From: an uncultured virus (IMG/VR IMGVR_UViG_3300005683_000013)
Taxonomy: Duplodnaviria > Heunggongvirae > Uroviricota > Caudoviricetes
DNA: 64,000 bases
IMG/VR virus record: IMGVR_UViG_3300005683_000013
Direction: 5' to 3' (one strand)
This document shows, one piece after another, positions 27,435-57,596 of this stretch (the first letter of the stretch is position 1; the number at the start of each line of letters is the position of its first letter). The position numbers and the translations under genes are program-made. The notes beneath the pieces are model-generated. The model was not told where the DNA came from, ran no database searches, and worked only from the letters and a program-made list of their open reading frames with translations.

Positions 27435-29045
27435 TTATTCTTGTTCTAAGTCTCTCGACAGAGATGCAACAATATCTTTAGGAGTGTTTGGGTTCTTGGC
27501 TATAAGTTTTCTTGTGTAATATGATTCATGTCCACTTAACTTTGTAAGAACGTCTGATGGAGTGTTAGGATTTGACACGACGTTGTTAATGACTGCATCA
27601 TGTGTGTCAGTTGATAACATACGTAAAATTTCTTGAGGCGTAGAATTATTTTTTGCAATGCTCATTCTAATCTGAAAATCTTTATCTTTTGCTGCTCGTT
27701 GCAACATTTCAATTGGAACATCAGGGCGTTCAAGTATTATTGATCGTATGTTGTCTCTTTCAGAAGGAGACATGTTCTTGTCGTTGAGCATTGTTTGTAA
27801 AACACTCCATGGAGTTTCAACACGTTTAGCAATTGCTATTTTTTCAGTTGTGTCTCCGCTGGCGTGTTGTTGTAAAAATGTAACTGGAAATTTAATTCTA
27901 GGAGCGTAAATCAATACGTATTTTGTCAAACGAATGGATGTTTTCATCATGTCTAACATGATATTTTCTGGAATCCATTTTGCTCTAGCGACAGCTTCTA
28001 GATTTTGATCTTCACCGTCTTTTACAAGTCGTTTCACAATTTCTATAGGAATCTTGTGTTCAGAATTCATTAAGATATACCAATAAAATTCTGGCCACCA
28101 TTTCGCTATCTGTAGCAATTGTTCAGATGTTATCCAAGATTTCCTAGAAATAATTGACGCAAAATTATACCTTTCATCTTCGTCAGATAAAAGCTTTTTC
28201 AAAACATCAATTGGCATAGGATGTTCAGATTTTTCTAAAACTACCTTATACGCTTCAACAGTTCGCTCTGATTCTGGAAGTTGTTCTATTGTTATTTCGC
28301 CATTTATTAGTTTTGTCAAATTGCTTTTCGGCGCAGATTCTGCAGCAATTTTTGCAATCTTCAACACTTGCTGAAGATTTTTCACATCTTGTAAAGGTTC
28401 TGGATTTTTAAATTCTGTATCTTCTGCATCAAAATATTGATGTTGAATGATCTTATTATCAATGTCTCTTTGAAAAACAAGAGCAACTTTATAGTTTGAA
28501 TCTTCTTTATCTAAGTCTTTGCGCAACAGATAAATCAAAATAACATTTCTTGAAGTATAGTCTTCAAAATATTTTTGATCTCTCATGGTGACACACCATT
28601 TTGTTCCAGATCCATAAGAGCATGACGCTTCTTTGCTAATGATATGAACTAGCAAAACTTGTTCATCTTCGTATAATTTTTTTGAACCGCTTGCTTTCAA
28701 GTCTTTCTTATTTGCAGTCTTAGATTTTCCACCTGTCAATTGTTGAAGTTCGAATAATCGTTCTCTAAGCTCAGTGAAATTCTTCCATGAATTTATATCA
28801 CGTTCAGACACGTCTAATTTGTTCTGAAATTTATGAAACAATTCTATAACATCACCAATCTCTGGTGCTAAAGCCTTTCCTGAAACTAAGACGTTAGTTG
28901 CATACTCCAAATATTTCTTAGTTGATGTAGGATCTCTTTTTGATAGCTCTTCAATGTCCTGTTCGTATTCAGGATATTTTGTTTGCAAGTTCTCAAGTTT
29001 ACCTTCGGCAAGAAATGGAATGATAGAACGTCGTAAAATTCTCAT
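27435..29045 (-). CDS. PcfJ-like domain + leucine-rich-variant/HEAT repeat protein (paralog A)
   Basis: YGSGTKWCVT core; repeats IAKNNSTP, VVSNPNTP, IAKNPNTP. Confidence 0.7.
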   Translation of the reverse strand: MRILRRSIIPFLAEGKLENLQTKYPEYEQDIEELSKRDPTSTKKYLEYATNVLVSGKALAPEIGDVIELFHKFQNKLDVSERDINSWKNFTELRERLFELQQLTGGKSKTANKKDLKASGSKKLYEDEQVLLVHIISKEASCSYGSGTKWCVTMRDQKYFEDYTSRNVILIYLLRKDLDKEDSNYKVALVFQRDIDNKIIQHQYFDAEDTEFKNPEPLQDVKNLQQVLKIAKIAAESAPKSNLTKLINGEITIEQLPESERTVEAYKVVLEKSEHPMPIDVLKKLLSDEDERYNFASIISRKSWITSEQLLQIAKWWPEFYWYILMNSEHKIPIEIVKRLVKDGEDQNLEAVARAKWIPENIMLDMMKTSIRLTKYVLIYAPRIKFPVTFLQQHASGDTTEKIAIAKRVETPWSVLQTMLNDKNMSPSERDNIRSIILERPDVPIEMLQRAAKDKDFQIRMSIAKNNSTPQEILRMLSTDTHDAVINNVVSNPNTPSDVLTKLSGHESYYTRKLIAKNPNTPKDIVASLSRDLEQE

Positions 29046-29071
29046 GTTAGTACTTATCGTTCATCGGTATG

Positions 29072-30106
29072 TCAAGTTCGTATCTCTTTTAGTTTAAAGG
29101 CACTCGTGGAATACCCAAAATCACTCTTGTCGAGCTCGGCAACGTAAGGACAATTCTTTTTTATCTTTTCTGGGTCACCGCCGTTCCAGCAGAATATTTT
29201 CTGTTGCTTACTATTGTTTCCAACTGCTGAAATTAGAAGATAGTTCTTGCCGTTCTTTGTTTGTTTTAGAACAACGTCTGTCACAACAAACCAGTATATT
29301 TCTTTGTTTTCCCATTCTTCAATTGACTTGACACCCATACGTTGTAGCTTGCTTCGCAACTCGTCAGACACAAGAATATCAAGATTTAGGTCACCAACTA
29401 GTTCTTTGTAAAAATCAATACGTTCTTCTTTCGTCCACTCTTCTATTCCCTCAGTTGATTTCAACAACATGTCAAAGTTTTTGCGGCCGAGATTGGGTTC
29501 TTTTTTTGTTGTCTTTTTGATCAAATCCATGTTTTCAACAAGAATATGATGCATGTGTTTATAAGACGAAAAGGTCTTGCCCTCGCCGATCAAATCCATT
29601 GATTGGAACGCCCCGAGTTTAATCAACGATTCAAATCCACGTTTATTGAACTTAGAATGTTTCCACGAACCATCAGCGTTCCACAATAAATCATAGATGT
29701 TTTTATAAGGTCGATGTTCAAAAATCTCATCGACTGCGGCTTCGCCAACGCCTTTGCAAGTCAAAAAAGATGGCATAAGACGCTTGTTAGGCAGCACACT
29801 CCAATCTTTTGTCGCGATATTGATATCAATTGGAACGATCTTGTATCCTAGTGACTTTATCTCACTAATTGCACGTTCCTTGTCTTCTAGGTTTCCAGAC
29901 ATCGTTTCAAGGTATGCACACAACCATTCAGGTTCATAGTGTGTCAATAACCACGCGCAATAATAGGAATCGATGGCGTACGATACGGCATGAGAATTTG
30001 ACGTAAGAACACCATTTGACAAATAAAATTGATGATCTGGATGATCAATTTCTAGATCACACGTTTCATCATACCCAATAAACGTGACAGATTCAATGTT
30101 TGTCAT
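29072..30106 (-). CDS. dnaE: DnaE fragment 5 with N-terminal IntC (29996-30106)
   Basis: ...DLEIDHPDHQFYLSNGVLTSN/SHAVSYAIDSY; KGVG HhH motif. Confidence 0.9.
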   Translation of the reverse strand: MTNIESVTFIGYDETCDLEIDHPDHQFYLSNGVLTSNSHAVSYAIDSYYCAWLLTHYEPEWLCAYLETMSGNLEDKERAISEIKSLGYKIVPIDINIATKDWSVLPNKRLMPSFLTCKGVGEAAVDEIFEHRPYKNIYDLLWNADGSWKHSKFNKRGFESLIKLGAFQSMDLIGEGKTFSSYKHMHHILVENMDLIKKTTKKEPNLGRKNFDMLLKSTEGIEEWTKEERIDFYKELVGDLNLDILVSDELRSKLQRMGVKSIEEWENKEIYWFVVTDVVLKQTKNGKNYLLISAVGNNSKQQKIFCWNGGDPEKIKKNCPYVAELDKSDFGYSTSAFKLKEIRT

Positions 30107-31196
30107 ATTCATCTCCGATAAAATAAACAATTTGTTGTCGATCTGTAGTTAGTATGTGTCTAACTTTGTCTTTACATTCTTCAATCAAATCATTTGTTTT
30201 ATAACAAAATTGACTGGTTGCAATCCTGATGACAGTGAATCCTAAAGCTGTTGCACCGACGTTTAATTCAATATCTTTTGCTTGCACTAAAGGTAATTGA
30301 TTCCATTTTTCAATATTATGAAAATGAATATGACCGTCAAATTCAACAATTATATTGTGTGATTTTGACATGACATCAATTTGACGAATTTGAGTTTTTG
30401 TAAAATGAAAATATTCTTTAGAACGTAATCGTTGATTTCCTTTAAAATCAAATGTAGGAAATTCAAGTTTCAACCATTTCACAACAGCTTTTTCAGGTTT
30501 TGTCGTTCTTTTTTGTATCAGCTTTGATATGCATTTTTCAAAAAACAAATCAGGATCTTTATTTCTCCACTCTTCAAGTTTTTTCATGCGAGCTTCGAGA
30601 ATCTCAGGTCTAGCTGATGTTATTTTCGCTGTCTCAGACGCAACTTTTCTACCAATATCAGATTGGGCCCACATAGTAATTGTTTCTTTGGCAAGTTTAG
30701 ATCGACGGGCACGTTCGACAGGATTTGACATAATTGCTTCAGAAACAACTTTTCCCATTTTTTGACGATATTCTAAAAGGTCGTCACCTGATTCTTTTGC
30801 TCTAACAATCCAATTACCGTTAATGATATTACAAGATTTGTAATTAGATTTTGTAGAAACACACATTACTGGCGATTGATATCTTTCAAGATATTGTTCT
30901 TTTGTTAGTGAATGCTCTAGTCGTATATGAGCAGTAATTTTTGTGCCAGCAAATTGACATATTTTACATTCAATATAATCTATTCCTTCTATTCCATTGG
31001 GCCAGCAATCAACGATATGTTCTTTGTTCGTGTAAATTGGATTGACATAGCCCGGTGTGTTTCTTATCCACTTACCACATCTGTTGCAACGATATTTGAA
31101 GAAATTACGGTTATTGACAATTTGCGTCGTAGTATCTCGTAAAGAGGCAACATCTCCTTCGTCTCTATCGTTCTGAACTTGTGATCTATCGTGCAT
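30093..31196 (-). CDS. Homing endonuclease, Vsr/DUF559-like, with Zn fingers
   Basis: TKPE, QIDV, VEFDGHIHF, VIRI. Confidence 0.8.
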   Translation of the reverse strand: MHDRSQVQNDRDEGDVASLRDTTTQIVNNRNFFKYRCNRCGKWIRNTPGYVNPIYTNKEHIVDCWPNGIEGIDYIECKICQFAGTKITAHIRLEHSLTKEQYLERYQSPVMCVSTKSNYKSCNIINGNWIVRAKESGDDLLEYRQKMGKVVSEAIMSNPVERARRSKLAKETITMWAQSDIGRKVASETAKITSARPEILEARMKKLEEWRNKDPDLFFEKCISKLIQKRTTKPEKAVVKWLKLEFPTFDFKGNQRLRSKEYFHFTKTQIRQIDVMSKSHNIIVEFDGHIHFHNIEKWNQLPLVQAKDIELNVGATALGFTVIRIATSQFCYKTNDLIEECKDKVRHILTTDRQQIVYFIGDEYDKH

Positions 31197-32014
31197 TGAA
31201 TGATTTCTCCAGTTTTCATCTTGAGTTCAACAATTGGTTTTTTGCCATTAGAGTGAACAGCAAGAACCTGAACATAAATTTCCGTATTTGTTTTTTCATC
31301 ACGTGATTTTACGAAATCACCAATTTGTACGTCTTTGATCATTTTTTGTGTTTGCACTAAGCCTTCATTTGTCATTTCATAAGTGTCAATCAACGATTCG
31401 TGATGTAAACAACGATTAAATGCGTATCCTGACAGAAATGCAATTTTCTCATAAAGATTTTCTGCAACTGATTTTGCATATCCATTTTTCATTGCACCTT
31501 CAACAAAGTCGATTCTTAACTGATCAACTTTTGCTTTTGCTGCGTCGCCTCCTGAAATAGATCGTTTCATAATTGCTCGGCGGACCTCGTCGCATTTATC
31601 TTTGGCAAATCCTCCGACGTGTTCGGCGAGCGCCATGACGCCCTCTTGAAAAATTAACATTCCTTTTGTTTTTTCCAGGATTTTGTTAATGCGTTTATCA
31701 CCCCAGTCATATTCTTTGCCAGCGACAGCGTCCAACCAAATTTCGTCAATCTTTGCTGCCAAAGGCCCTGGACGATAAATTGACGTAAGAACTGCTATAT
31801 CATCAATGCTATTTGGCTTTGATCTTTCAAAGAATTTCTGAGCGCCTCTACTGGTGCACTGAAAAATCCCACACCATTTTGCTTGGTGATAAACGTTCTT
31901 ATATACTTCTTGATCGTCAAGGTCAATCTTTCCCACACGCATGTGCTGATCAAACCATTGCCGAACGTCATCGAACCCAACGTCATTTGTTTTTGTGATT
32001 TTTGAAGGTTTCAT
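31064..32014 (-). CDS. dnaE: DnaE fragment 4 with C-terminal IntN (31064-31411)
   Basis: GIFQ, IYRPGP, IFQE, GYAFNR/CLHHES...CTIDHKF. Confidence 0.92.
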   Translation of the reverse strand: MKPSKITKTNDVGFDDVRQWFDQHMRVGKIDLDDQEVYKNVYHQAKWCGIFQCTSRGAQKFFERSKPNSIDDIAVLTSIYRPGPLAAKIDEIWLDAVAGKEYDWGDKRINKILEKTKGMLIFQEGVMALAEHVGGFAKDKCDEVRRAIMKRSISGGDAAKAKVDQLRIDFVEGAMKNGYAKSVAENLYEKIAFLSGYAFNRCLHHESLIDTYEMTNEGLVQTQKMIKDVQIGDFVKSRDEKTNTEIYVQVLAVHSNGKKPIVELKMKTGEIIQCTIDHKFRTIETKEMLPLYEILRRKLSITVISSNIVATDVVSG

Positions 32015-32078
32015 GTTTTTTCTTGAATGATAGACAACTATGTTTGACAGTATTCAACTATCACGGAATTTTCAACCA

Positions 32079-32249
32079 TTGACACTCAGAACCGCCGCAA
32101 CAATTGCCGTATGAACTAGTGATAAATTGTCATAAGAATTATCTACCACCGTCACGTGATGGCAAGTGATGATTCAATGATCGAAGCCTTGGACGCTGAC
32201 GCATTTGACGTACGTTTTATCAAATGTCCCTCGTTGACACTCAGAACCG
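32079..32249. repeat. 16-bp direct repeat TTGACACTCAGAACCG (32079-32094 and 32234-32249)
   Basis: Exact match read from the sequence. Confidence 0.9.
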
Positions 32250-32295
32250 TCAATTATGTCGTTGATGGATTCACCGTCCAGGACGTGAAAACGGT

Positions 32296-34017
32296 CTATA
32301 TCACACTCGAGAGGGTTGATTCTTGGGAAGAAAGTGAGAGATTCTTCTCAAAGATAAAATTTGCGCAGCCACCGATTTTATCGTATCCAAGGGAACTATC
32401 ATGTTGCACAGAATTTTTTAATTCTGTGCAAGACATATCAAATTTATCATGATGATCTGTCCACCACCAATTTGGTGACGTAGTTTCAACTAATTTGAAA
32501 TCTGAAAAAACATAATCATTATTTTCTAAATTCATTCCTAATCTAGAGTCTTGAATCACACGAATCTTTCGTACTGTATTTTTATGACACCAATCTTCAA
32601 TACGACTTATAAGTTTTGCAAAACCACCTGGAATTGATGCAAATAAACCTGTCGCATATTGTGCTATTTCAATACATGTAGAGTCTGTATTTGACGTTTT
32701 TACTGAAATAGCACATACGAGTTCATCATCGTAAATAAGACCTAACGTAAATATTGATTCTACGAAATCATCAAGATGACAATTTTCAAAAAACATTTCA
32801 GCTATATCCTGAGATATTTCCTCAATAGAACAACGTTCAACGTCAATGATTCGAAGTGATTTGTTCAAAACCGATGAAATAATCGACTTAACAACTTGTG
32901 GTTTATTATACCATTCATCATCATAAAATTGCAATAATCGTATTCCATTTTTAATTGCAAATTGACGTTTCATTTCATGATATGTCAAAGAATTTGCACA
33001 CTGAATTTCTGAATGATAATAAACACCATTGCATTCAATGGCAAGACGTTCTGTTGGAATGTGAATGTCAAGTTCATATCCATGTTCAAGTTGATCTCTA
33101 ACATTAAAATGAACGTTAAACCCAAGATCTAAAACGTATTGTCCAACTTCTTTTTCCCATATTGACGTCGAAGCATTTGGCTTACAAATACAATATGGAT
33201 CATTTGACACTTGACCAACAGTGTACCTTACAACTCGACCACATGATTTGCATGTTGACGTAGTCATTAATTTCAGTGCAGCTGCGTAATTTTCTGGATA
33301 GGGATCTAACATAACATCCCAATTATTTACTTGACTTATCAGATCATTTAATTGTTTGATTGATAATCTAGTGTGATTGTGAATCAATCCTTCTTGAAAT
33401 CTACGTTTGCGTGTTGCAGACAGCTTGTTAATCCATAATTGTCTATTTTGACCTTTTGTCCAATGCATACCAGATTTTAATGCTCTTGATATTGATTCTC
33501 CTCGTTTACGAATTCTTTCATCATTTTCGCTTGTCAAACCATAAGACCAATGAAGTTCACCTACGTTTTTGCCAATCAACGATAAAGAAATTTTACGGAG
33601 ACGTTCGTCAGTTTCTTTAGTAAGACCTTTTGACCATGATGGAATGTGTAATTCTTTTTTAGTCTTACTCATCTTCACGGTGCCAATTGCAATTGATTCG
33701 TTAGTTTCTTTTGTTAATCCATGATTCCAAGCAGGTTTGTAATTTTCCCTACGTGTTTTTGCAATTTCATTGATTGCTGTGATTTTATTACATCTAGAAC
33801 ATCTTAAATCGTAACCAGTATCATATCCATTCCATCGTGTCTCTTTACCACAATTACAATAAACTTGCGGCGCTAATTGAAGACGTGTTTCATCACCATT
33901 GATTTGATGTTGTTTAGAATTATGTAAAATAAGAGACAATGCACTTTTTACTTTTCTATCACAAATAGAACATCTATCAGGAATACTAACTTTTCCCGTT
34001 GTTTCACGGTAGATCAT
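32296..34017 (-). CDS. Hef-like homing endonuclease with NUMOD-type repeats
   Basis: WNHGLTKETNE/WSKGLTKETDE/WSYGLTSENDE repeats; ELDIHI, AIECNGVYYHS, DDEW. Confidence 0.8.
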   Translation of the reverse strand: MIYRETTGKVSIPDRCSICDRKVKSALSLILHNSKQHQINGDETRLQLAPQVYCNCGKETRWNGYDTGYDLRCSRCNKITAINEIAKTRRENYKPAWNHGLTKETNESIAIGTVKMSKTKKELHIPSWSKGLTKETDERLRKISLSLIGKNVGELHWSYGLTSENDERIRKRGESISRALKSGMHWTKGQNRQLWINKLSATRKRRFQEGLIHNHTRLSIKQLNDLISQVNNWDVMLDPYPENYAAALKLMTTSTCKSCGRVVRYTVGQVSNDPYCICKPNASTSIWEKEVGQYVLDLGFNVHFNVRDQLEHGYELDIHIPTERLAIECNGVYYHSEIQCANSLTYHEMKRQFAIKNGIRLLQFYDDEWYNKPQVVKSIISSVLNKSLRIIDVERCSIEEISQDIAEMFFENCHLDDFVESIFTLGLIYDDELVCAISVKTSNTDSTCIEIAQYATGLFASIPGGFAKLISRIEDWCHKNTVRKIRVIQDSRLGMNLENNDYVFSDFKLVETTSPNWWWTDHHDKFDMSCTELKNSVQHDSSLGYDKIGGCANFIFEKNLSLSSQESTLSSVI

Positions 34018-34933
34018 TCTTCGTCTCCATGGGTATCATGATATCTGATTCCTCTGTGAGTTCTGATGCCAGAACCCACTGATTATCTTCAAGTTTTACG
34101 TAAACGTTAGACAGCAGCCTGTGTAGAGAGCCGTCAAGACTAATTTCTACGATACCCGTTCTTTTTAGCATAGTTTCAATGGTTTTCTCCACTATTCTGA
34201 GAGTCTCAAGTCCTAGAATGTCAAATTTTACGAAATTGCCTACCTTCTCGCAATGTTTGTAGGAAACGCCTTCTACAAATGGGCTTTGTGGTTCACCTTT
34301 AGAGGTGATGAGAGGCATCTTTTTCATCAAATCGTCACATACCAAAACTCCCCCCGCGTGTCGTGACAAACTTCGGTTTTGTTTGAATAAAACCTTGATC
34401 GACTCACCGACATGTGGATACTTTGCAATGAATTCTCGATATGATTGACTATATTGTATCGCCTCATCATATGTCAACACAAATAAGTTCTTGTCATCAC
34501 CGTGTTTTGTCACTGCCTTTCTGACATCTTGTTCGACGGTTGCTGTTGCAATGTTGACTTCATCAAACGGCAACCCATAAAACTTAGAGATGTCTTTCGT
34601 AAGAGACTTTAGTTTTGTTGTGTTGTAGTTTGAAATTGGCACGACGTTTGTGTTGCCGAATTGTTCTCGCATGACATCAAGGATCTTATCACGATCAGAG
34701 ACATCAGTGTCAACGTCAGGCAGACCGACACGATAGACTGAAAGAAATCGACCGAAAGGAAGATCCCACTCAATTGGGTCAAGGTCTGTTATATCAAGAA
34801 GATAATTGATCAGAGAACCACACCCAGAATTATGAACACTTATTCTTTCAACATTGTACGTATGACTGTTTTGAACAGTCAAATCAACTACTTTGCCCTT
34901 GTGTTGAATCGAAGTGCTCTTTATTAATTTCAT
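34004..34933 (-). CDS. dnaE: DnaE fragment 3 (catalytic palm) with N-terminal IntC (34829-34933) and Hint-like tail
   Basis: SVHN/SGCGSL, PDVDTD, RHAGG, KFDILGL. Confidence 0.92.
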   Translation of the reverse strand: MKLIKSTSIQHKGKVVDLTVQNSHTYNVERISVHNSGCGSLINYLLDITDLDPIEWDLPFGRFLSVYRVGLPDVDTDVSDRDKILDVMREQFGNTNVVPISNYNTTKLKSLTKDISKFYGLPFDEVNIATATVEQDVRKAVTKHGDDKNLFVLTYDEAIQYSQSYREFIAKYPHVGESIKVLFKQNRSLSRHAGGVLVCDDLMKKMPLITSKGEPQSPFVEGVSYKHCEKVGNFVKFDILGLETLRIVEKTIETMLKRTGIVEISLDGSLHRLLSNVYVKLEDNQWVLASELTEESDIMIPMETKNDLP

Positions 34934-35873
34934 GATATTGATATGCCTTTTTTTGAAATTTTTTCAGGTCTTTATCTAACAGAACAATATAATTCATATT
35001 GCAATTTTTACAAAATTGCTCTAACGCACTTATTTTTGCAGCAAACGTTATCGGAGATAAATCGATCCAGCGTTGACCCTTTATTTCATAAACATTTTGT
35101 TCTATGACAAAATCAGGATAATATCGTCTTGTTTTATTCGATTGTGGATCGTAATATTCAATTCCTTCATGAATTTTATCAAATCGTTCTATTTTTACAT
35201 GTGGATTAGCTTCAATTTGACTTAAAATAAACGCTAATTCTAACTTAGAGTCATACCTGACACTTGATTCAAATACTCCTACATGTTTATATTTTCCTTT
35301 GCCTCGAATACGAGATCTAAACTCCTGATCATTTATCCATTTATCACGCATTACACGTGACATGTTATCTCTATATGCTTGTGAAGTCACCATTTTACGA
35401 TGTGATTCTAACAATCTTTCTCGATTGTTTGCCCACATTGCTTTAGAATTTTCACGATGTTTTGCTAGTGTTTCTGGTCGATGTTGTGCAATTTTTTGTT
35501 TTGCAACCATATTAACACGCCAGGCTTCATCACGTTGATAGTATTTTACATAACACTTTGGACATACTTGAACACGATGTTTTCTAAGTCGCATCGATCT
35601 TGCAAATGTTATGTAAATTACCTGACACCGCTCACATCGTATTTGTAATGGTTTTTTTGTCGAATCTATTCCCCAACGATATTCATCCCATGTAAATCCA
35701 ATTTTAAAATCAACGTTAGAAAGTGTCGCTCGTCTAGCAAACGTTTGCTCATTTTTTAATTGTGGTAACAACTGTAACAATCGTTGCCAACAAGATTGTG
35801 TGATAATAAGTGAATTATCAAGTTCTATTTCACGTTTAATGATACTAATTTCTTCTTCAGTAAATTTTGCCAT
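34884..35873 (-). CDS. Homing endonuclease, TnsA-N-like PD-(D/E)xK
   Basis: YDSKLE, YYPDF, YEIKG. Confidence 0.8.
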   Translation of the reverse strand: MAKFTEEEISIIKREIELDNSLIITQSCWQRLLQLLPQLKNEQTFARRATLSNVDFKIGFTWDEYRWGIDSTKKPLQIRCERCQVIYITFARSMRLRKHRVQVCPKCYVKYYQRDEAWRVNMVAKQKIAQHRPETLAKHRENSKAMWANNRERLLESHRKMVTSQAYRDNMSRVMRDKWINDQEFRSRIRGKGKYKHVGVFESSVRYDSKLELAFILSQIEANPHVKIERFDKIHEGIEYYDPQSNKTRRYYPDFVIEQNVYEIKGQRWIDLSPITFAAKISALEQFCKNCNMNYIVLLDKDLKKFQKKAYQYHEINKEHFDSTQGQSS

Positions 35874-35891
35874 ACCTTAGTAGGTATGGCA
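35868..35891 (-). promoter_or_regulatory. Hairpin sequestering the endonuclease start codon
   Basis: TGCCATACCT-ACTA-AGGTATGGCA, perfect 10-bp stem containing the ATG. Confidence 0.7.
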
Positions 35892-35901
35892 CGGGGGTCA
35901 G

Positions 35902-37095
35902 CTAAACTTCTACAATATCGTCGTCTTCAGACAAGTACTGTGCTTGAACCCAACCACGATTACGAGTTAAGAATTTATGATCTTTTGTACAACGAATTAT
36001 TTTCCCATTTTCAAACTCAAGTTCTAAAATATCTTCATCAACATCATAATGATGTGTCGCAGTAACACCTTGATTTTCTCCATAAGCGTCAACAACAATA
36101 TCACCAACTTGAATATCAACAATTGACTTGTAATTTCCAGATCCCATTAACACTTTAGTTTCTGGTGTAAAACAGCCTCTTCCTGGACCAATCAGCGCCA
36201 CACCTCTGCCTAACTCAATGATTTTTGCAAGCGTGACGAAGTATTCACTGAACTTCATTGAAGTGATAACGTTCAATTCTTCTTTTAGACGATCAACGTA
36301 TTCTTTTTTGGTATGCAACCCACGTTTCTTGAGACCTTTGACACACATCTTGATGAGCCAAGAGTCACCAGATTCTTCTTCTGGAACGAGAGTCTTCGGC
36401 AATTTAATGCTCATGTCAGGCTTAACTTCACCGATAACATGATGAGCAATGTCATGTGTTCTTTCAAGAGCATCGCAGATCAAATCATCATCTTCATCGC
36501 CTAGACCACATGTTTCCTTGATCTTGAGATACTCGTCCCACATTTGTGTGGCATTCTTTGGATACAACTCACACTTCAGCTCGTCTTTTGATTTTGGCAG
36601 ACTGTCTGGAGAGTAAGTCTTGTAGTTCATGAACCCTAATTTCTTATAGAGCTCACGTTCACGCCAGACGTTTGGATTGTAATAGTGTGCATCACAAGTC
36701 ACGTTAAGTTGTTGTGTCAGACCATTACGTTTTGCAAACTCAATGATTGAAGCGTTGATCAAGTGTTGGGCACCGAGCTTATTGAACTGAAGCTCAAGGT
36801 ATAGATTTTCTTGTCCAAACACATCAACAAGCATACCGTATGCATTGCCAACAGCATTGACACATGCTTCTTTAATGACGGGATCTCTAAATAGATCATA
36901 ACTGATGTCATCAAACTTGTAATTCTTCAGTGTTTGAAAGATGTTGAATCCAGGGAGTCCCGCGAGGCAATTATGAACCAACAACCCATTAGCGAAGAAA
37001 CAATGAGTGTCTTCTACGGTTATATCATAAACATCAGAAACTTCTTCAATTTCCACAATTTCTTCAACTTGAACAAAGTCTTGAAACATATTCAT
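35902..37095 (-). CDS. dnaE: DnaE fragment 2 with IntC (36970-37095) and IntN (35902-36174)
   Basis: GLLVHN/CLAG; YLELQ, CDAHY; GPGRG/CFTPET...CTKDHKF. Confidence 0.93.
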   Translation of the reverse strand: MNMFQDFVQVEEIVEIEEVSDVYDITVEDTHCFFANGLLVHNCLAGLPGFNIFQTLKNYKFDDISYDLFRDPVIKEACVNAVGNAYGMLVDVFGQENLYLELQFNKLGAQHLINASIIEFAKRNGLTQQLNVTCDAHYYNPNVWRERELYKKLGFMNYKTYSPDSLPKSKDELKCELYPKNATQMWDEYLKIKETCGLGDEDDDLICDALERTHDIAHHVIGEVKPDMSIKLPKTLVPEEESGDSWLIKMCVKGLKKRGLHTKKEYVDRLKEELNVITSMKFSEYFVTLAKIIELGRGVALIGPGRGCFTPETKVLMGSGNYKSIVDIQVGDIVVDAYGENQGVTATHHYDVDEDILELEFENGKIIRCTKDHKFLTRNRGWVQAQYLSEDDDIVEV

Positions 37096-37996
37096 CTAAA
37101 AATCCTTCTTGATTTATGTCAAGTTCCCACAAAATATCAACCTTATAACCTAAACTTACAGCGTAGGATACTTTTTGTTCATCTTTTGTCCATTTGTCTT
37201 TTGCTTGAATTGTGCCATATGGAAATTTTACAAATTGATCTTCAGTAAAAACTCTCGGATCTAGATGCCAATACGTCCCATTTATTTCAATAATCAAATT
37301 GAATTTTTCGATGAATATGTCATACGAATATCTTCCACATTGAAATTGTTGTTTGCATGTCAAACCACATTTTTCAAGCTCAACACAAACTTTTCTTTCT
37401 AAGAGAGAAACGCCAGTTCTCATTGAAAGCAATCCTTTTAAGCCTCTATTTCTACTGAGTTCGCTTATACAAGATTGCGCTTCATCAGAATTTTTATAGT
37501 TAGTAAAACTTTTTGAAAACGGAGAGTTAGATTTTCGATATTCTAGTGCTATTTTTTCTGATATTTCTTTATCGTGTCCTAATTTTTCGTAATACTCTGG
37601 AGTGTTTTTTGGGTTGTAGTGTTTCCAAGTTTTTCTAAGTGATGATGTTTTTGCAGCGCCTATTTTCGATCGATGATTTATGTCAGATCTAATATCATCG
37701 ATCGAAAATGTAGCAGGATATTTGAATTGAACTTTGATTTCTTGTGGTAATTTCAAATATTTTTTATTATCGTGTTTGATATTTTTCGCTATCAACAGAC
37801 TTCTAATGACATTTTTACTAAATTTATATCGATTTGCAATTTCTTGGTAATCTCTATAAATTAGATCTGCCAACATTGATTGACAATAATGTTTGTCTTC
37901 AGACAAATGTTTCAAACATTCCAATGTCAATCCAGCGGCGCTTAAATCAATAAAAAATTGTTCTCTTGCTTTTAGCAATTCTTTTGAAGCTGGCAT
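37064..37996 (-). CDS. Homing endonuclease, Vsr/DUF559-like
   Basis: SLLE, YSYDI, IEINGTYWH, LWE. Confidence 0.82.
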   Translation of the reverse strand: MPASKELLKAREQFFIDLSAAGLTLECLKHLSEDKHYCQSMLADLIYRDYQEIANRYKFSKNVIRSLLIAKNIKHDNKKYLKLPQEIKVQFKYPATFSIDDIRSDINHRSKIGAAKTSSLRKTWKHYNPKNTPEYYEKLGHDKEISEKIALEYRKSNSPFSKSFTNYKNSDEAQSCISELSRNRGLKGLLSMRTGVSLLERKVCVELEKCGLTCKQQFQCGRYSYDIFIEKFNLIIEINGTYWHLDPRVFTEDQFVKFPYGTIQAKDKWTKDEQKVSYAVSLGYKVDILWELDINQEGFLDEYVSRLCSS

Positions 37997-37997
37997 G

Positions 37998-38035
37998 TGA
38001 GTACTCCACCAACATAAGTATCAGTGGAGTACTCA
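37998..38035 (-). promoter_or_regulatory. RBS-sequestering hairpin with late-promoter-like loop
   Basis: TGAGTACTCCAC-TGATACTTATGTTG-GTGGAGTACTCA, 12-bp stem immediately before the ATG. Confidence 0.75.
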
Positions 38036-38039
38036 GTTA

Positions 38040-38954
38040 CTATACTGATAAAATTTTATGTTCTTTAGTAAGGAATTGAGCCTCAATCCATCCTTTATCA
38101 GTGTAAACTTTATGATCTGACGTTAGCTTAATTGTTTTTCCATTTTTCAATTTGATTTGAAGTAATTTTGCATTTTTGCGTGTACAATCACCCCAAACAA
38201 TTTTTTTGAAACACACTTTATTTTGATTTGTGTCATAAGACAAAGTGAATACTTCTTGTCCACTGTTCAACTTATTGATTACGTCAATAATTTTCAAAGT
38301 TCCAAAATTAGTAACAAGTAAAGAATCCGGATGTAGACATGCCGTGCTGGCGACAACGTTTCCTTTAGTTATCGTCTCCTTGATCATACGAACGTCCATA
38401 CGAGGAAATCGATAGTATCCTTCAAGGAAGCTCTTTGATGTCAAATAGAAAAGTTCTTGAAGACCTTGATCATTCTTTGGCAGAAGAACAAGGTGATGTC
38501 GTCGATTGAGTGGATTGAAGTGTTTGGTGCTCTTGCTTTCGTCCTCATCCTCAATTGTCAACGCATTCTTTGATTCAATATCAACAACATCATCATTATC
38601 ATCACTTGTTATAATAAGTTCTGTCTTGATCTTTTCTTTGTTTTTCTTGCGTTCTTTTTCAACAAGTTTGTCAGACTCTGACTTGAGTTTTTCCATTCGC
38701 CAATCATCAAGGTTGGGATGAAAATACGCCTCAATTCCAGGAAGATATTTGAATGTCTTTCCTGATTTTTTCCAATCTTGAACAAGAAGTTGGGCATGCG
38801 CATATGAGTTGAAATTGCCGTGTTCAGTGATTGCGTGTGCATCAAGACCGTTTTCAAGGCACCACTTGAAATGTTCTTCTGGATAACCTAGACCGTCATA
38901 TGGTGAGAACGTGGTGTGATTATGAATGCTAACAAACTTTTTGGGTGTGCGCAT
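38040..38954 (-). CDS. dnaE: DnaE fragment 1 (PHP domain) with IntN (38040-38339)
   Basis: HNHTTFSPYDG, ITEHG, GIEAY, HLVLL, ASTA/CLHPDS...LTSDHKV. Confidence 0.93.
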   Translation of the reverse strand: MRTPKKFVSIHNHTTFSPYDGLGYPEEHFKWCLENGLDAHAITEHGNFNSYAHAQLLVQDWKKSGKTFKYLPGIEAYFHPNLDDWRMEKLKSESDKLVEKERKKNKEKIKTELIITSDDNDDVVDIESKNALTIEDEDESKSTKHFNPLNRRHHLVLLPKNDQGLQELFYLTSKSFLEGYYRFPRMDVRMIKETITKGNVVASTACLHPDSLLVTNFGTLKIIDVINKLNSGQEVFTLSYDTNQNKVCFKKIVWGDCTRKNAKLLQIKLKNGKTIKLTSDHKVYTDKGWIEAQFLTKEHKILSV

Positions 38955-39110
38955 GGAATGACTTTCCCTTTGACTTTTAACTTATATTAAAGGTTACTGT
39001 TTTACAATCGCAGACATTAAACGACACAACGCTGACGCTAATCAGCGTTTGTCAAATTGTTGTTTGGAGATAGATCAGTGATAACTCTGAAATACTCACC
39101 AAGATCTAGA

Positions 39111-40082
39111 TCACGTTTTAAACGAATTAATTTTATCTTTGATTTTTTGTGGAGTTGAAGGATTTTCAGCAATTGCGTTACGAACGTTTTTGTCTTTGTC
39201 TTTTGACAATTCTTTTATGACTTTTATTGGTAAGTTGTGTTGTTGTGCGACATTCCATCTAACATTTGAATCTTTATCTTGCGATAGTTTTTCTAAAATT
39301 TCAGATGTAACGTTTGGATTGTATATGACGCCAACCTTATTAGAAAATTTCTTACTTTTACTAAATTTGTTCAATATTTCAACAGGTAGTGGAATATTTT
39401 TTGCTCGTAAAAGAATGTGTTTATACATCTGATGGTTGTTATTAGCTATTTCTAATAACTTATCAACGCTTAATAGATTCTTTTCAATAACAGCTTGTAT
39501 TAAACCATCATAAAATTGTTCATCTGAGTCAAGATTTTCATAAACTAAACGTTCTAAAATGTCAGGTGAAACTTGTTTGCCTGCAATTGCAACGTATTTA
39601 TACATGTATGTATATTTTTGTGCAAATTGTATCAACATTTCTAACGTCATCCAGTCTTTTCTAGCGATATATTTAACTACACTGTCATTTTGTGCAATGA
39701 AACGTTCTACAACATCCATCGGAATAATGGATTCTGTGTTCTTTAACACAAGCCTATACATGTCATCATCACGTTCTGACTCAGGAACCTGATCAATCGT
39801 TATTTCTTTACTTACTAATTTTGCAAGTGTACTCTTTGGCGCCGAGCTAGCAGCATTTTCAGCAATAGATAAGATTTGTTGAAGATTCTTCACACTTTTC
39901 AATGGTTTCGGTTTCTCAAATTCTGTATCAAGTGCGTCAAAGTATTGTTTCTGAACGATCTTGTTGTTAGAATCTCTTTGAAAAACAAGTGCGACTTTAT
40001 AATTGGGATCTTCTTGCGTCAGATCTTTGCGTAAAGCATAAATGAGAACAATATTTTGTCCAGAGTATTCTTCAAAAAGTTG
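39111..40082 (-). pseudogene. N-terminally truncated paralog C (PcfJ-like remnant + LRV repeats)
   Basis: Frame is open from 40082 (QLFEEYSGQNIVLIYALRKDL...YKVALVFQRD), with no ATG at the point where homology begins. Confidence 0.65.
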
Positions 40083-41084
40083 TTAAGATTCAAGCATTTG
40101 ATCATATTTTAATGCCCAAGACATCTTAACATCGTCAGGAATATATTCTTTGTCGACGATACAACCATATATTTCGCCCTCGCGGCCACCTTCGTTAACA
40201 ACTTTTTCATCAAGATCTTTAAGAAGACGATCGATCTCCTCAATTGATACTTCTTCTTCTCTTGAGTCTTCATCGAGTAAAGTGTATTGGACAACGTCAC
40301 TTGTCCGTTCTGATTCAGGAATCTCAGAATATTTGATTTCACCATTAAGCAATTTTGCCCAAGTACACTTTGGTGCGTTTTTTGCCGTATTTTCAGCGAT
40401 AGACAACACTTGTTCGAGGTTCTTCACGTCTTTCAGCGGAGTTGGTTTCTCGAATCCTATGTCTGGAGCGTTGAAGTATTGTTTTTCTATGATTTTATTT
40501 TTCAGATCTCTCTGAAAGACAAGAGCGACTTTGTAATTGGGATTTTCTTTTGTCAGATCTTTTCGCAACAAAAAGATCAGGATGACGTTTTTTCCAATAT
40601 ATTGTTGGAAATAATTCCTGTCACGCATCGTGACGCACCATTTTGTCCCAGAACCATAAGTCGTAGATGCATCTTTGGTTTTGATGAAATACGTCACAAC
40701 CTGTTCATCTTCATACAGTTTATCTGCGCCGCCTGCTTTCATCTCTCGTTTTTGTGTGGTTTTTGACTTTTCACCAGATTGTTCAAGTTCAAACAATCGA
40801 TCCCTGAGTTCGGTGAAGTTTTTCCACTTGTTTATGTCACGTTTATCAGAGTCAAATTTGTTCTGAAACTTATGAAATAAAACAATAACGTCACCAATCT
40901 CTTGAGCCAAAGCCTTACCGGAGATCAAGACCTTTACTGCATAATCGAGATACTTCTTCGTGGAAGATGGATCACGTTCAGACAGTTCTTTTATCTCGTC
41001 AGCATGATCAGGATACTTTGTTTGAAGGTTCTCAAGTTTGCCTTCAACAAGAAAATGAATGACAGATCTTTGTAATATTCTCAT
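40083..41084 (-). CDS. PcfJ-like domain protein (paralog B)
   Basis: About 250 N-terminal residues align by eye with paralog A. Confidence 0.75.
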   Translation of the reverse strand: MRILQRSVIHFLVEGKLENLQTKYPDHADEIKELSERDPSSTKKYLDYAVKVLISGKALAQEIGDVIVLFHKFQNKFDSDKRDINKWKNFTELRDRLFELEQSGEKSKTTQKREMKAGGADKLYEDEQVVTYFIKTKDASTTYGSGTKWCVTMRDRNYFQQYIGKNVILIFLLRKDLTKENPNYKVALVFQRDLKNKIIEKQYFNAPDIGFEKPTPLKDVKNLEQVLSIAENTAKNAPKCTWAKLLNGEIKYSEIPESERTSDVVQYTLLDEDSREEEVSIEEIDRLLKDLDEKVVNEGGREGEIYGCIVDKEYIPDDVKMSWALKYDQMLES

Positions 41085-57584: not shown

Positions 57585-57596
57585 ATATCATATATA

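What the first reader, a model, noticed from the sequence alone, without database searches (positions are those of the whole stretch)
29072..38954. DNA polymerase III alpha split into five genes, joined by three split inteins plus one apparently non-spliced junction
Seen: five collinear DnaE ORFs alternate with four free-standing endonuclease genes of three types. Joining at the intein boundaries restores conserved DnaE motifs ASTA|CLAG, GPGRG|SGCGS and GYAFNR|SHA. Each IntN starts with Cys and has a TxxH block; each IntC ends in Asn before a Cys or Ser +1 residue. Known: fractured phage genes with IntN-endonuclease-IntC layout and the two-part cyanobacterial DnaE (its site lies four residues upstream of the FNR|SH site). 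Inference: three trans-splicing reactions give two chains (1+2+3 and 4+5) that form one polymerase. I do not know of a described five-part case.
Basis: partly seen in the sequence, partly recalled or inferred. Interest (0 to 1): 0.92.

Follow-up and report, generated by a model that had tools for sequence, protein, structure and literature searches.

The report
Phage DNA polymerase gene in five pieces
An uncultured phage encodes its DnaE-type DNA polymerase as five genes: three breaks carry intact-looking split inteins that should stitch the pieces into two chains, and the fourth carries only a dead half-intein that probably clips those chains together.

Summary
Confirmed. On the minus strand of 29,072-38,954, five collinear DnaE (Pol III alpha) genes alternate with four free-standing endonuclease genes. 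The exteins (205+265+225+188+307 aa) cover a contiguous 1,230-aa relative from end to end.

Three junctions are canonical split inteins with Cys1, TxxH, a terminal Asn and a +1 Cys or Ser. Contigs from other metagenomes delete exactly the predicted cassettes of inteins 1 and 3.

The fourth junction cannot splice. The 49-aa tail of fragment 3 is homologous to the C-terminal half of an IntN only, and is predicted to fold like Npu DnaE IntN residues 54-97. The 13-aa head of fragment 4 lacks blocks F and G. The tail is conserved in 28 of 98 related loci, shows purifying selection in six of seven informative pairs, is patchy on the extein tree, and sits beside varying endonucleases or none.

Best reading: three trans-splicing reactions give two chains that associate non-covalently, with the dead half-intein as a clasp (inferred).

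The layout is not unique. Among 66 full-length relatives DnaE is encoded in one to eight genes, at seven recurring sites. It is an extreme variant of "fractured genes" (Dassa 2009) combined with a tail-mediated split like T4 gp39/gp60. This scan has reported similar loci on other DNA.

The parts
38340..38954 (-). Extein 1 (205 aa, PHP domain) of fragment F1
   Evidence: Pfam PHP 4.4e-17. Boundary before CLHPDS. Matches reference residues 3-212.
38043..38339 (-). IntN-1 (99 aa; Cys1, TSDH block B)
   Evidence: phmmer to the NrdJ-1 split intein 8ubs 4.7e-8. An X19 contig deletes exactly 36970-38339.
37064..37996 (-). HE1, free-standing endonuclease (310 aa), 43 nt after the F1 stop
   Evidence: phrog_22677 1e-11 and phrog_3339 'homing endonuclease' 1.7e-6. 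Weak Pfam MTES_1575. Same BLASTP cluster as HE3.
36970..37095 (-). IntC-1 (42 aa, ends LLVHN, +1 Cys)
   Evidence: Pfam Intein_splicing, profile positions 120-155..
36175..36969 (-). Extein 2 (265 aa)
   Evidence: Reference residues 211-475..
35905..36174 (-). IntN-2 (90 aa; Cys1, TKDH)
   Evidence: phmmer to NrdJ-1 6e-7. Allelic IntN found in L016, L049, L056, L062, L089 and L117.
34884..35873 (-). HE2, free-standing endonuclease (329 aa), 28 nt after the F2 stop
   Evidence: Weak Pfam TnsA-like N 5e-4. phrog_33911 6.6e-13. Cluster 3 holds five site-475 endonucleases, HE2 included, plus one at site 507.
34829..34933 (-). IntC-2 (35 aa, ends ISVHN, +1 Ser)
34154..34828 (-). Extein 3 (225 aa, palm with PDVDTD and FDILGL catalytic motifs)
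   Evidence: Aligned to Taq DnaE 425-644 and E. coli DnaE 363-576. Pfam DNA_pol3_alpha 5.7e-35.
34007..34153 (-). Tail (49 aa): splicing-dead remnant of the C-terminal half of an IntN
32296..34017 (-). HE3, free-standing homing endonuclease (573 aa), overlaps the tail's end by 14 nt
   Evidence: phrog_3339 'homing endonuclease' 1.9e-42. Replaced by other ORFs, or absent, in relatives.
31976..32014 (-). Head (13 aa, MKPSKITKTNDVG): short N-terminal extension of fragment F4
   Evidence: Absent from contiguous relatives. Conserved M-S-K-I-T-S-I-x-K-V pattern in 17 loci. Likeness to the first strand of IntC is not significant.
31412..31975 (-). Extein 4 (188 aa, fingers)
   Evidence: Aligned to E. 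coli DnaE 585-759. Pfam DNA_pol3_finger 2.3e-30.
31067..31411 (-). IntN-3 (115 aa; Cys1, TIDH)
   Evidence: phmmer to Npu DnaE IntN 4lx3 3.1e-8. X2 and X9 contigs delete exactly 29996-31411.
30093..31196 (-). HE4, free-standing endonuclease (longest ORF 367 aa; true start uncertain)
   Evidence: Weak Pfam DUF559 1.7e-3. phrog_22215. Cluster of site-890 endonucleases.
29996..30130 (-). IntC-3 (45 aa from the TTG; 37-39 aa from the ATG at 30106 or 30112; ends VLTSN, +1 Ser)
29075..29995 (-). Extein 5 (307 aa, HhH and C-terminal part)
   Evidence: Pfam HHH_6 2.4e-11. Reference residues 879-1229.

Best explanation
The region encodes one phage DnaE-type polymerase as five polypeptides.

Three mobile cassettes, each IntN - homing endonuclease gene - IntC, sit at reference sites about 212, 475 and 890. 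After translation, each IntN/IntC pair associates and trans-splices. F1, F2 and F3 join into a chain of about 744 aa (PHP and palm, ending in a 49-aa tail). F4 and F5 join into a chain of about 508 aa (a 13-aa head, then fingers, HhH and the C-terminus).

The fourth cassette (tail - HE3 - head, site about 700) cannot splice. Its tail is the C-terminal half of an IntN, without block A or Cys1. Its head has no block F or G.

The two chains therefore stay separate and form the active enzyme non-covalently. The anionic tail and the cationic head act as a docking clasp derived from the part of a split intein that makes first contact.

What is shown: the gene layout, extein completeness, the catalytic residues, tail homology and predicted fold, selection on the tail, and presence/absence polymorphism with exact boundaries.

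What is inferred: that splicing happens, that the two chains bind, and that the tail and head mediate the binding.
For: - Layout and domains.
- Complete collinear coverage of a contiguous relative.
- Polymerase Asp motifs aligned to Taq DnaE.
- Intein residues and lengths.
- The IntN are related to solved split inteins.
- Allelic split inteins at the same three sites occur in 6, 7 and 10 other distinct loci, with contiguous mini-inteins at two of the sites.
- X2 and X9 contigs join 29993 to 31416, a net loss of 1,416 nt, which is exactly 29996-31411. An X19 contig joins 36952 to 38355, a net loss of 1,370 nt, which is exactly 36970-38339.
- One 12,034-nt contig of another study (X6) spans all four cassettes at about 93% identity. 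None of the 12 listed indels lies in a DnaE fragment; 5 more were not shown.
- L055 has 93-97% identical extein DNA but lacks inteins 1, 2 and 3. Identity dips next to the insertion sites, as expected for co-conversion.
- Tail homology and fold: tail HMM against 20,732 ORFs hits only IntN ends, with window IntN-2 at 5.8e-8; the reverse IntN-half HMM hits the L044 tail at 1.8e-6; PDB profile hit to NrdJ-1 at 6.9e-5; fold match to Npu IntN 54-97.
- Tail conservation: 28 of 98 loci. dN/dS is 0.20-0.45 in 6 of 7 informative pairs.
- Charge: tail -7 and head +2 in the window; mean tail charge -3.1 over 28 loci. This fits the anionic-IntN / cationic-IntC 'capture' step described in PMC11766414 (passages read).
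- In L002 the split persists with no endonuclease. In L024 the halves lie about 13 kb apart.
- T4 gp39/gp60 is a characterised precedent in which an insertion of about 70 aa at the break forms a pendant domain thought to aid assembly (PMC11461880, passages read).
Against: - No protein-level data exist. Splicing, chain association and polymerase activity are all untested.
- The complex predictor was unavailable.
- Intein 3 has Ser rather than His before the terminal Asn. Its halves are not charge-complementary (IntN-3 -1, IntC-3 -7).
- The head's likeness to the start of an IntC is not significant (E 0.2 or worse in both directions).
- Foldseek E-values for the 50-aa tail model are not significant (about 1). 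The case rests on which proteins rank first, on rmsd and on 31-33% identity. AF2 may echo the sequence homology.
- The closest pair (window and L055) gives tail dN/dS 0.66, from only 5 substitutions.
- In Aeh1 NrdA the tails were not needed for heterodimer formation (Crona 2010, section heading seen). A clasp role is therefore not the only possible role.
- RNA-library contigs cover the region but cannot prove transcription.
Confidence: 0.75

Rival explanations
1. The tail and head are functionless leftovers of a decayed intein. The two chains associate only through the native palm-fingers interface of DnaE.
For: In Aeh1 NrdA the tails are not needed for heterodimer formation (section heading in PMC3045599). 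The head is only 13 aa, and its intein origin is not significant.
Against: The tail is kept in 28 of 98 loci at similar length. Synonymous sites are saturated while about half of the residues are conserved, and dN/dS is 0.20-0.45. It is retained where the endonuclease is gone (L002) and where the halves lie 13 kb apart (L024). It is predicted to fold on its own at pLDDT 93.
Confidence: 0.15
2. Junction 3/4 is still joined, either by an unusual protein-splicing chemistry or at RNA level (group I/II intron or ribosomal bypass). The final enzyme would then be one chain.
For: Phage genes are often interrupted by introns that carry endonuclease ORFs (PMC12880540, passages read). The T4 gene 60 cassette combines a split with translational bypass.
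Against: No conserved Cys, Ser or Thr stands at tail position 1. There is no terminal Asn, no +1 nucleophile (Phe), and no block A, F or G. Rfam finds no intron in window 28500-39500 or in the 406-nt gap of L002. The tail is selected as protein. The head has its own conserved ATG. The halves are 13 kb apart in L024.
Confidence: 0.04
3. The locus is a decaying pseudogene wrecked by endonuclease invasions, or an assembly chimera. The phage would rely on another polymerase.
For: The window comes from one metagenome assembly and no whole genome is held. Only part of the phage is visible, so another polymerase cannot be excluded.
Against: All five ORFs are open, and the catalytic motifs of both polymerase and inteins are intact. 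The same five-gene layout is assembled independently at about 93% identity in X6, and a four-gene version in X2. Each junction type recurs in many independent contigs.
Confidence: 0.04

Closest known systems
Fractured genes of environmental phages (Dassa, London, Stoddard, Schueler-Furman, Pietrokovski 2009; PMC2677866; section 10 and passages read)
   Same: The order N-part+IntN, short spacer, free-standing endonuclease gene, IntC+C-part, all on one strand. DnaE was one of their hosts, with three loci at three different sites, and DnaE-1 carried an extra IntC. They describe Vsr-like endonucleases, IntN of 88-105 aa and IntC of 33-54 aa.
   Different: Each of their loci showed one complete fracture on a short, mostly truncated contig. 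Here three fractures and a fourth non-splicing break lie in one complete gene. Relatives reach six and eight genes.
T4 topoisomerase II gp39/gp60 split by the mobA cassette, with C- and N-terminal extensions (PMC11461880 passages; bioRxiv 10.1101/2022.08.31.505936 passages)
   Same: A homing-endonuclease cassette splits an essential gene without splicing. It adds a conserved C-terminal extension to the first product and an N-terminal extension to the second. The endonuclease is replaced or lost in relatives, and in some phages the second half lies elsewhere in the genome. The extensions form a pendant domain thought to help assembly.
   Different: A different host protein. The preprint calls the T4 extension 'unique', and neither paper links it to inteins. 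Here the tail is demonstrably homologous to an IntN half. A direct link between the two is only probable: hhalign probability 88.7%, pairwise E 2.6e-6; HMMER E 0.45 across the PDB.
Aeromonas phage Aeh1 NrdA-a/NrdA-b split by mobE (Crona et al. 2010, PMC3045599; abstract and outline read)
   Same: A gene fragmented by a mobile endonuclease. Function is restored by tails acting as protein interaction domains, distinct from RNA or protein splicing.
   Different: Those tails are said to have originated during the mobE insertion. No intein ancestry is reported.
Cyanobacterial split DnaE intein (Ssp/Npu DnaE; described in PMC2677866)
   Same: The host protein is also DnaE. IntN-3 of the window is its closest solved relative (3.1e-8). 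Its site is nearby; the offset of four residues is recalled, not tested.
   Different: One break only, with halves at separate loci and no endonuclease between them in the classical description.
NrdJ-1 split intein (PDB 8ubs)
   Same: The closest solved relative of IntN-1, IntN-2 and the tail profile.
   Different: It is a complete, active split intein in a ribonucleotide reductase. The tail matches only its residues 64-108.
[quoted passage not shown]
   Same: Several inteins in one replication-related gene.
   Different: The review calls more than one intein per gene rare. I found no report of several split inteins in one gene. My recollection that only one Trichodesmium DnaE intein is split was not checked.

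Membership tests
C-family DNA polymerase (DnaE / Pol III alpha) | PHP, palm (NTPase), fingers and HhH domains in order, with the catalytic Asp motifs | tested here: met
   Pfam PF02811, PF07733, PF17657 and PF14579 above their cut-offs across F1-F5. PDVDTD and FDILGL align to the Taq motifs. Coverage of a 1,230-aa relative is collinear and complete.
Fractured gene (split intein plus free-standing endonuclease; Dassa 2009), junctions 1, 2 and 3 | N-part+IntN, endonuclease ORF, IntC+C-part on one strand | tested here: met
Fractured gene (Dassa 2009), junctions 1, 2 and 3 | Non-coding spacer of 27-51 nt between the IntN stop and the endonuclease start | tested here: inconclusive
   43 nt at junction 1 and 28 nt at junction 2, so met there. 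At junction 3 the longest HE4 ORF overlaps F4 by 133 nt and the true start is unknown.
Class 1 split intein, junctions 1, 2 and 3 | Cys/Ser at position 1, Thr-x-x-His in block B, C-terminal Asn, Cys/Ser/Thr at +1 | tested here: met
   C...TSDH...HN|C; C...TKDH...HN|S; C...TIDH...SN|S.
Class 1 split intein, junctions 1, 2 and 3 | Penultimate His in block G | tested here: not met
   Met for inteins 1 and 2 (VHN). Intein 3 ends TSN, and its alleles in L016, L049, L056 and L115 also read ...LT(SN). Some active inteins lack this His (recalled).
Class 1 split intein, junctions 1, 2 and 3 | Protein trans-splicing activity | not testable with these tools
   Needs expression and mass spectrometry.
Split intein, junction 3/4 (tail and head) | Block A with an N-terminal nucleophile | tested here: not met
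   The tail starts directly after the palm helix (…MLKRTG|IVEISLDG). No Cys, Ser or Thr is conserved there across 28 tails.
Split intein, junction 3/4 (tail and head) | Blocks F and G with a terminal Asn and a +1 nucleophile | tested here: not met
   The head is 12-16 aa, has no HN, and the next residue is an invariant Phe.
Split intein, junction 3/4 (tail and head) | Homology to the Hint fold (partial) | tested here: met
   The tail equals the C-terminal half of an IntN by HMM, by PDB profile and by predicted fold (18 of the 19 listed VIA rows are inteins or BIL domains).
Endonuclease-cassette split with C-/N-terminal extensions (T4 gp39/gp60-mobA, Aeh1 NrdA-mobE) | Extensions at the break that contiguous homologues lack, conserved under selection, with the endonuclease replaceable or lost | tested here: met
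Endonuclease-cassette split with C-/N-terminal extensions | Non-covalent assembly of the two products into an active enzyme | not testable with these tools
Needs biochemistry.
Endonuclease-cassette split with C-/N-terminal extensions | Sequence homology of the DnaE tail to the T4 gp39 C-terminal extension | tested here: inconclusive
Vsr-like / PD-(D/E)xK homing endonucleases of fractured genes | Match to the family profile | tested here: inconclusive
   Pfam MTES_1575 (HE1, HE3), DUF559 (HE4) and TnsA-like N (HE2) all score below the curated cut-offs. HE3 matches phrog_3339 'homing endonuclease' at 1.9e-42. Active-site residues were not examined.

The most novel reading that the evidence does not exclude
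The tail - endonuclease - head unit is a distinct kind of mobile element. It is a splicing-dead half-intein cassette that homes into DnaE and permanently turns a one-chain polymerase into a two-chain one. It keeps only the half of a split intein that captures its partner.

The classical 'unique' extensions at the T4 gp39/gp60 break would belong to the same intein-derived family. Clasp cassettes would then be a general third way, beside introns and inteins, for a homing endonuclease to live inside an essential gene.

Alongside it, up to six mutually non-interfering natural split inteins would work on a single protein in a single cell (L049).
Probability: 0.4. Interest if true: 0.8.

Novelty: new variant of a known kind. 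Interest (0 to 1): 0.62.

Why it matters
1. It shows how far an essential replication gene can be broken up by selfish elements and still be kept: five genes here and eight in a relative, one extein being only seven residues inside the catalytic PDIDTD motif.

2. It points to a fate for inteins other than loss. The partner-capturing half survives as a non-catalytic docking module that still travels with endonucleases.

3. Several different split inteins that must pair correctly in one cell are natural candidates for orthogonal ligation tools. In the window the three IntN are 32-36% identical to each other, and inteins 1 and 2 have opposite charge polarity.

4. Short 'truncated' Pol III alpha ORFs in phage annotations may be pieces of such genes. 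A possible example is the 172-aa CBB_328 noted in PMC5259590.

Tried and rejected
- Megablast of the 9.9-kb region against 50,697 phage records found no match.
- No whole genome is held for the window, and there are no tRNAs.
- Rfam at E up to 1 found no intron. The only hits were a sub-threshold RAGATH-30 outside the genes and a sub-threshold gyrA RNA in L002.
- The promoter and terminator scan was not clearly enriched: 34 promoter-like sites against 37.6 in shuffles, and 10 terminator-like sites against 5.2 (sd 2.2). No regulatory claim is made.
- Pfam on 23 tails scanned singly gave nothing meaningful.
- phmmer of HE3 against the PDB gave nothing.
- Word-indexed homologue search with the tail found one partial protein only.
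- Short HMMs linking the head to the first strand of IntC were not significant. In one direction the L061 head ranked first, at E 0.21. In the other direction the best IntC hit was at E 1.8.
- The IntN-half HMM reaches only the L044-type tails (1.8e-6, 0.017). It does not reach the window's own tail subtype.
- Foldseek E-values for the 50-aa model were about 1.
- Shah et al. 2013 and Bonocora et al. 2011 are not held. What I say of them comes from passages in other papers.
- Contigs of an RNA library (X19) cover most of the region but cannot show transcription, starts or ends.
- Literature searches found no paper describing DnaE in five or more genes or an intein-derived non-splicing clasp. 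These were keyword searches of an open-access library only.

Full report
**What is there.** All genes in this part of the window are on the minus strand. PHROG hits mark a phage replication and nucleotide-metabolism module: DnaB-like helicase, ribonucleotide reductase, thymidylate synthases, thymidine kinase and HNH endonucleases. No genome is held for the window, and no GenBank phage is close at the DNA level.

Between 29,072 and 38,954 nine ORFs alternate: F1, HE1, F2, HE2, F3, HE3, F4, HE4, F5. Pfam places PHP on F1. The start of the Pol III alpha NTPase domain falls on F2 and the rest on F3. The fingers domain is on F4 and HhH on F5. Intein/Hint matches sit on the ends of F1, F2 and F4.

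**Completeness.** Relatives L001, L003 and L004 encode the same polymerase as one ORF of 1,199-1,240 aa. A 1,230-aa reference cut from L001 maps onto the window pieces as 3-212, 211-475, 475-699, 705-902 and 879-1229. The exteins are 205, 265, 225, 188 and 307 aa, 1,190 aa in all. F3 carries the PDVDTD and FDILGL motifs, aligned to the catalytic region of Taq DnaE. F3 and F4 abut on E. coli DnaE at residues 576 and 585, so nothing is lost at junction 3/4.

**The three split inteins.**
- IntN-1 is 99 aa (Cys1, TSDH); IntC-1 is 42 aa (…LLVHN|C).
- IntN-2 is 90 aa (Cys1, TKDH); IntC-2 is 35 aa (…ISVHN|S).
- IntN-3 is 115 aa (Cys1, TIDH); IntC-3 is 37-45 aa (…VLTSN|S).
- Intein 3 lacks the penultimate His.

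The closest solved proteins are split inteins. NrdJ-1 is closest to IntN-1 (4.7e-8) and IntN-2 (6e-7), and Npu DnaE IntN to IntN-3 (3.1e-8).

Spacers of 43 and 28 nt follow IntN-1 and IntN-2, and the IntC ORFs overlap the endonuclease genes. This is the layout of Dassa et al. 2009.

The three IntN are 32-36% identical to one another. Intein 1 (IntN +7, IntC -10) and intein 2 (IntN -10, IntC +3) have opposite charge polarity, which would favour correct pairing. Intein 3 (-1, -7) shows no such complementarity.

**Independent DNA.** The stretch, or parts of it, is held in 20 runs of 12 studies. Four were laid on the window.
- One 12,034-nt contig of X6 spans 28,994-39,500 at about 93% identity with all four cassettes. 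This excludes an assembly chimera. None of the 12 listed indels lies in a DnaE fragment; 5 more were not shown.
- Contigs of X2 and X9 join 29,993 to 31,416 with six other letters between. The net loss of 1,416 nt is exactly 29,996-31,411, that is IntC-3 + HE4 + IntN-3.
- A contig of X19 joins 36,952 to 38,355 with 32 letters between. The net loss of 1,370 nt is exactly 36,970-38,339, that is IntC-1 + HE1 + IntN-1.
- X19 also replaces HE3 by 983 other letters.
- X6 carries an extra insert of about 420 nt at 31,858, and X2 one of about 419 nt. This is the GIFQ|C site, where L055 has a contiguous mini-intein.

L055 shares 93-97% extein DNA identity with the window but has none of inteins 1-3. 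Identity falls to 66-86% beside the insertion sites, as expected from co-conversion during homing.

**Junction 3/4.** Contiguous relatives read …ETLRLIERTIELxLxKxGNxxPTF(S/K)D(I/V)(K/R)xW…. In the window F3 ends …ETLRIVEKTIETMLKRTG followed by 49 extra residues. F4 starts with 13 extra residues before FDDVRQW. There is no nucleophile at the start of the tail, no Asn at the end of the head, and Phe stands at +1.

The same tail occurs in 28 of 98 distinct loci that cover the site. Two of the 100 distinct loci did not cover it. Three loci whose matches run through the site to reference 742-755 were counted as contiguous. A head with the pattern M-S-K-I-T-S-I-x-K-V is present in 17 aligned loci.

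An HMM of the 28 tails was searched against all 20,732 ORFs of the 100 loci. Apart from the tails themselves, it hits only the C-terminal ends of genuine IntN-bearing ORFs. The best hit is 9e-10, window IntN-2 scores 5.8e-8 and window IntN-1 scores 2.8e-5. The reverse search with an IntN C-half HMM reaches the L044 tail at 1.8e-6 and two others at 0.017, but not the window's own tail subtype.

Against the PDB the tail profile's best hit is NrdJ-1 intein residues 64-108 (6.9e-5), followed by other Hint-fold proteins at weaker scores.

The head's likeness to the first strand of IntC (compare MSNIKSITPVG… at site 890) is visible but not significant.

**Selection and mobility of the tail.** Eleven tail pairs were compared. 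Four were saturated at synonymous sites (pS 0.89-0.97) while pN stayed at 0.32-0.49. Six gave dN/dS of 0.20-0.45. The closest pair gave 0.66, from five substitutions.

On a tree of 176 extein columns and 98 rows, the tail state needs at least 16 changes, and at least 4 are forced by well-supported branches. For example L060 (tail) is sister to L082 (contiguous) with 98% support.

The DNA between tail and head is heterogeneous. It holds endonucleases of the HE1/HE3 cluster in seven loci, several other unrelated ORF families, or nothing, as in the 406-nt gap of L002. In L005 a TnpB-like ORF follows the tail. In L024 the F5-like part lies about 13 kb downstream. Rfam finds no intron.

**How it most likely works.** Five polypeptides are made. 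Three trans-splicing reactions join F1+F2+F3 and F4+F5. The two chains carry palm and fingers separately and associate non-covalently.

The tail (net charge -7) and the head (+2) correspond to the region of a split intein where association starts. A review describes this step as an anionic disordered part of IntN meeting a cationic IntC (PMC11766414). The original paper is not held. My memory that the disordered part is the C-terminal half of IntN is unverified. That the tail and head act as a clasp is inference.

**Comparison with what is known.**
- The three intein junctions are members of the 'fractured gene' kind. That paper already listed three DnaE loci at three different sites, one with an extra IntC.
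- Non-spliced splits with conserved extensions are known for Aeh1 NrdA.
- They are also known for T4 topoisomerase gp39/gp60. There an insertion of about 70 aa at the break forms a pendant domain proposed to chaperone assembly. A preprint describes conserved C- and N-terminal extensions, endonuclease replacement or loss, and second halves encoded elsewhere. Neither T4 paper links the extensions to inteins.
- The DnaE tail profile aligns to the last 40 residues of T4 gp39 with hhalign probability 88.7% (E 2.6e-6) and 15.9 bits in HMMER. PDB-wide the match is only E 0.45. This is a lead, not a result.

**How common.** Loci were gathered with patterns from the F3 extein. They comprise 5 + 48 viral loci and the best 80 of 98 metagenome stretches, so the sample is not random.

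After removal of duplicates there are 100 distinct loci, 66 of them full length. DnaE is in one gene in 39, two in 18, three in 4, four in 2, five in 1 (the window's own contig, L054), six in 1 (L016) and seven or more in 1 (L049).

Reading L049 by hand gives eight genes. It has six split inteins, at about 475, 507, 514, 741, 808 and 890, plus the tail junction. One extein is only SGAPDID. L016 has six genes.

Split counts per site, with the number of informative loci, are as follows.

| Site | Split loci | Informative loci |
|---|---|---|
| 212 | 6 | 85 |
| 475 | 7 | 95 |
| about 510 | 9 | 96 |
| 700 | 20 | 90 |
| about 745 | 4 | 88 |
| about 810 | 16 | 85 |
| 890 | 10 | 82 |

One contiguous mini-intein was also found at each of sites 212, about 510, about 745 and 890.

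A profile search with the tail against 1.84 billion representatives gave 851 hits at E up to 0.001 and 19 at E up to 1e-10. Of the best 150, 100 match at the protein's C-terminus. Most are IntN ends of fractured genes in many hosts. About ten are DnaE tails without block A.

**Verdict.** The observation and the interpretation hold. The five-gene layout is a striking but not unique variant of a known arrangement. The more novel element is the intein-derived, non-splicing tail/head pair.

I found no paper describing either one. The searches were keyword searches of an open-access library only. Earlier notes of this scan describe the same kind of locus on other genomes, including five-gene cases. 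I formed my reading before seeing those notes, and they are not independent evidence.

Noticed in passing
window 54425-58484 (-): A second fractured gene. The ribonucleotide reductase large subunit is split into a 295-aa N part ending in an IntN (CFEGSTNVL...TSDH) and a 738-aa C part starting with an IntC (...GFYTSN|C). An endonuclease gene (56628-57584; phrog_22677/phrog_559) lies between them.
   Followed up: partly
L049:1985-15730: DnaE is encoded in eight genes, with six split inteins plus the tail junction. One extein is only seven residues (SGAPDID), flanked by IntC(507) and IntN(514) inside the catalytic PDIDTD motif. Its IntN at site 890 starts with Ser instead of Cys.
   Followed up: partly
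L026, L049, L128, L129 at reference site about 514: An atypically split intein. The long IntN carries a block-F-like motif (…DLTVEDDHRFHVVPF…), and the IntC is only 16-20 aa (M..HSFL....VVVHN).
   Followed up: no
L135:3781-3900 (T4 gene 39, C-terminus) and L135:2853-2990 (gene 60 start): The last 40 residues of T4 gp39 (…GEWFTFELNGDTIIVNENDEVQINGKWITVGELRKNL) align to the DnaE tail profile (hhalign probability 88.7%, E 2.6e-6). gp60 starts MKFVKIDS…, which resembles the heads. The T4 'TOPRIM insertion' may be a dead half-intein too.
   Followed up: partly
L024 and L134 (same contig): The tail-bearing N half of DnaE and the F5-like part lie about 13 kb apart, so the two-chain form does not need adjacent genes.
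   Followed up: partly
P0016, P0021, P0024: Proteins that do not look like DnaE end in a tail-like segment with no block A visible upstream (from the sequence context printed). P0021 looks terminase-like by eye; this label comes from no call. Dead clasps may exist in other host genes.
   Followed up: no
window 27435-29045, 39111-39902, 40083-41084 (-): Paralogous repeat-protein genes (phrog_17056) flank the DnaE locus on both sides. The upstream copy appears to be split into two ORFs. This explains the 'goes back' joints seen in the laid contigs.
   Followed up: no
L005:10925-11710: An ORF that looks like a TnpB/IS605-type transposase (by eye, no call) follows the tail where other loci have an endonuclease. 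The contig ends there.
   Followed up: no
window 31858 (site GIFQ|C of F4): Near-identical relatives in two other studies (X2, X6) carry an extra in-frame insert of about 420 nt here. L055 has a 345-nt contiguous mini-intein at the same site. The window lacks it.
   Followed up: partly
P0108, P0136, P0062: DnaE fragments with an IntN that starts after …L(F/L)xQxKS|C…. This suggests an eighth insertion site in the palm, not seen among my 100 loci.
   Followed up: no
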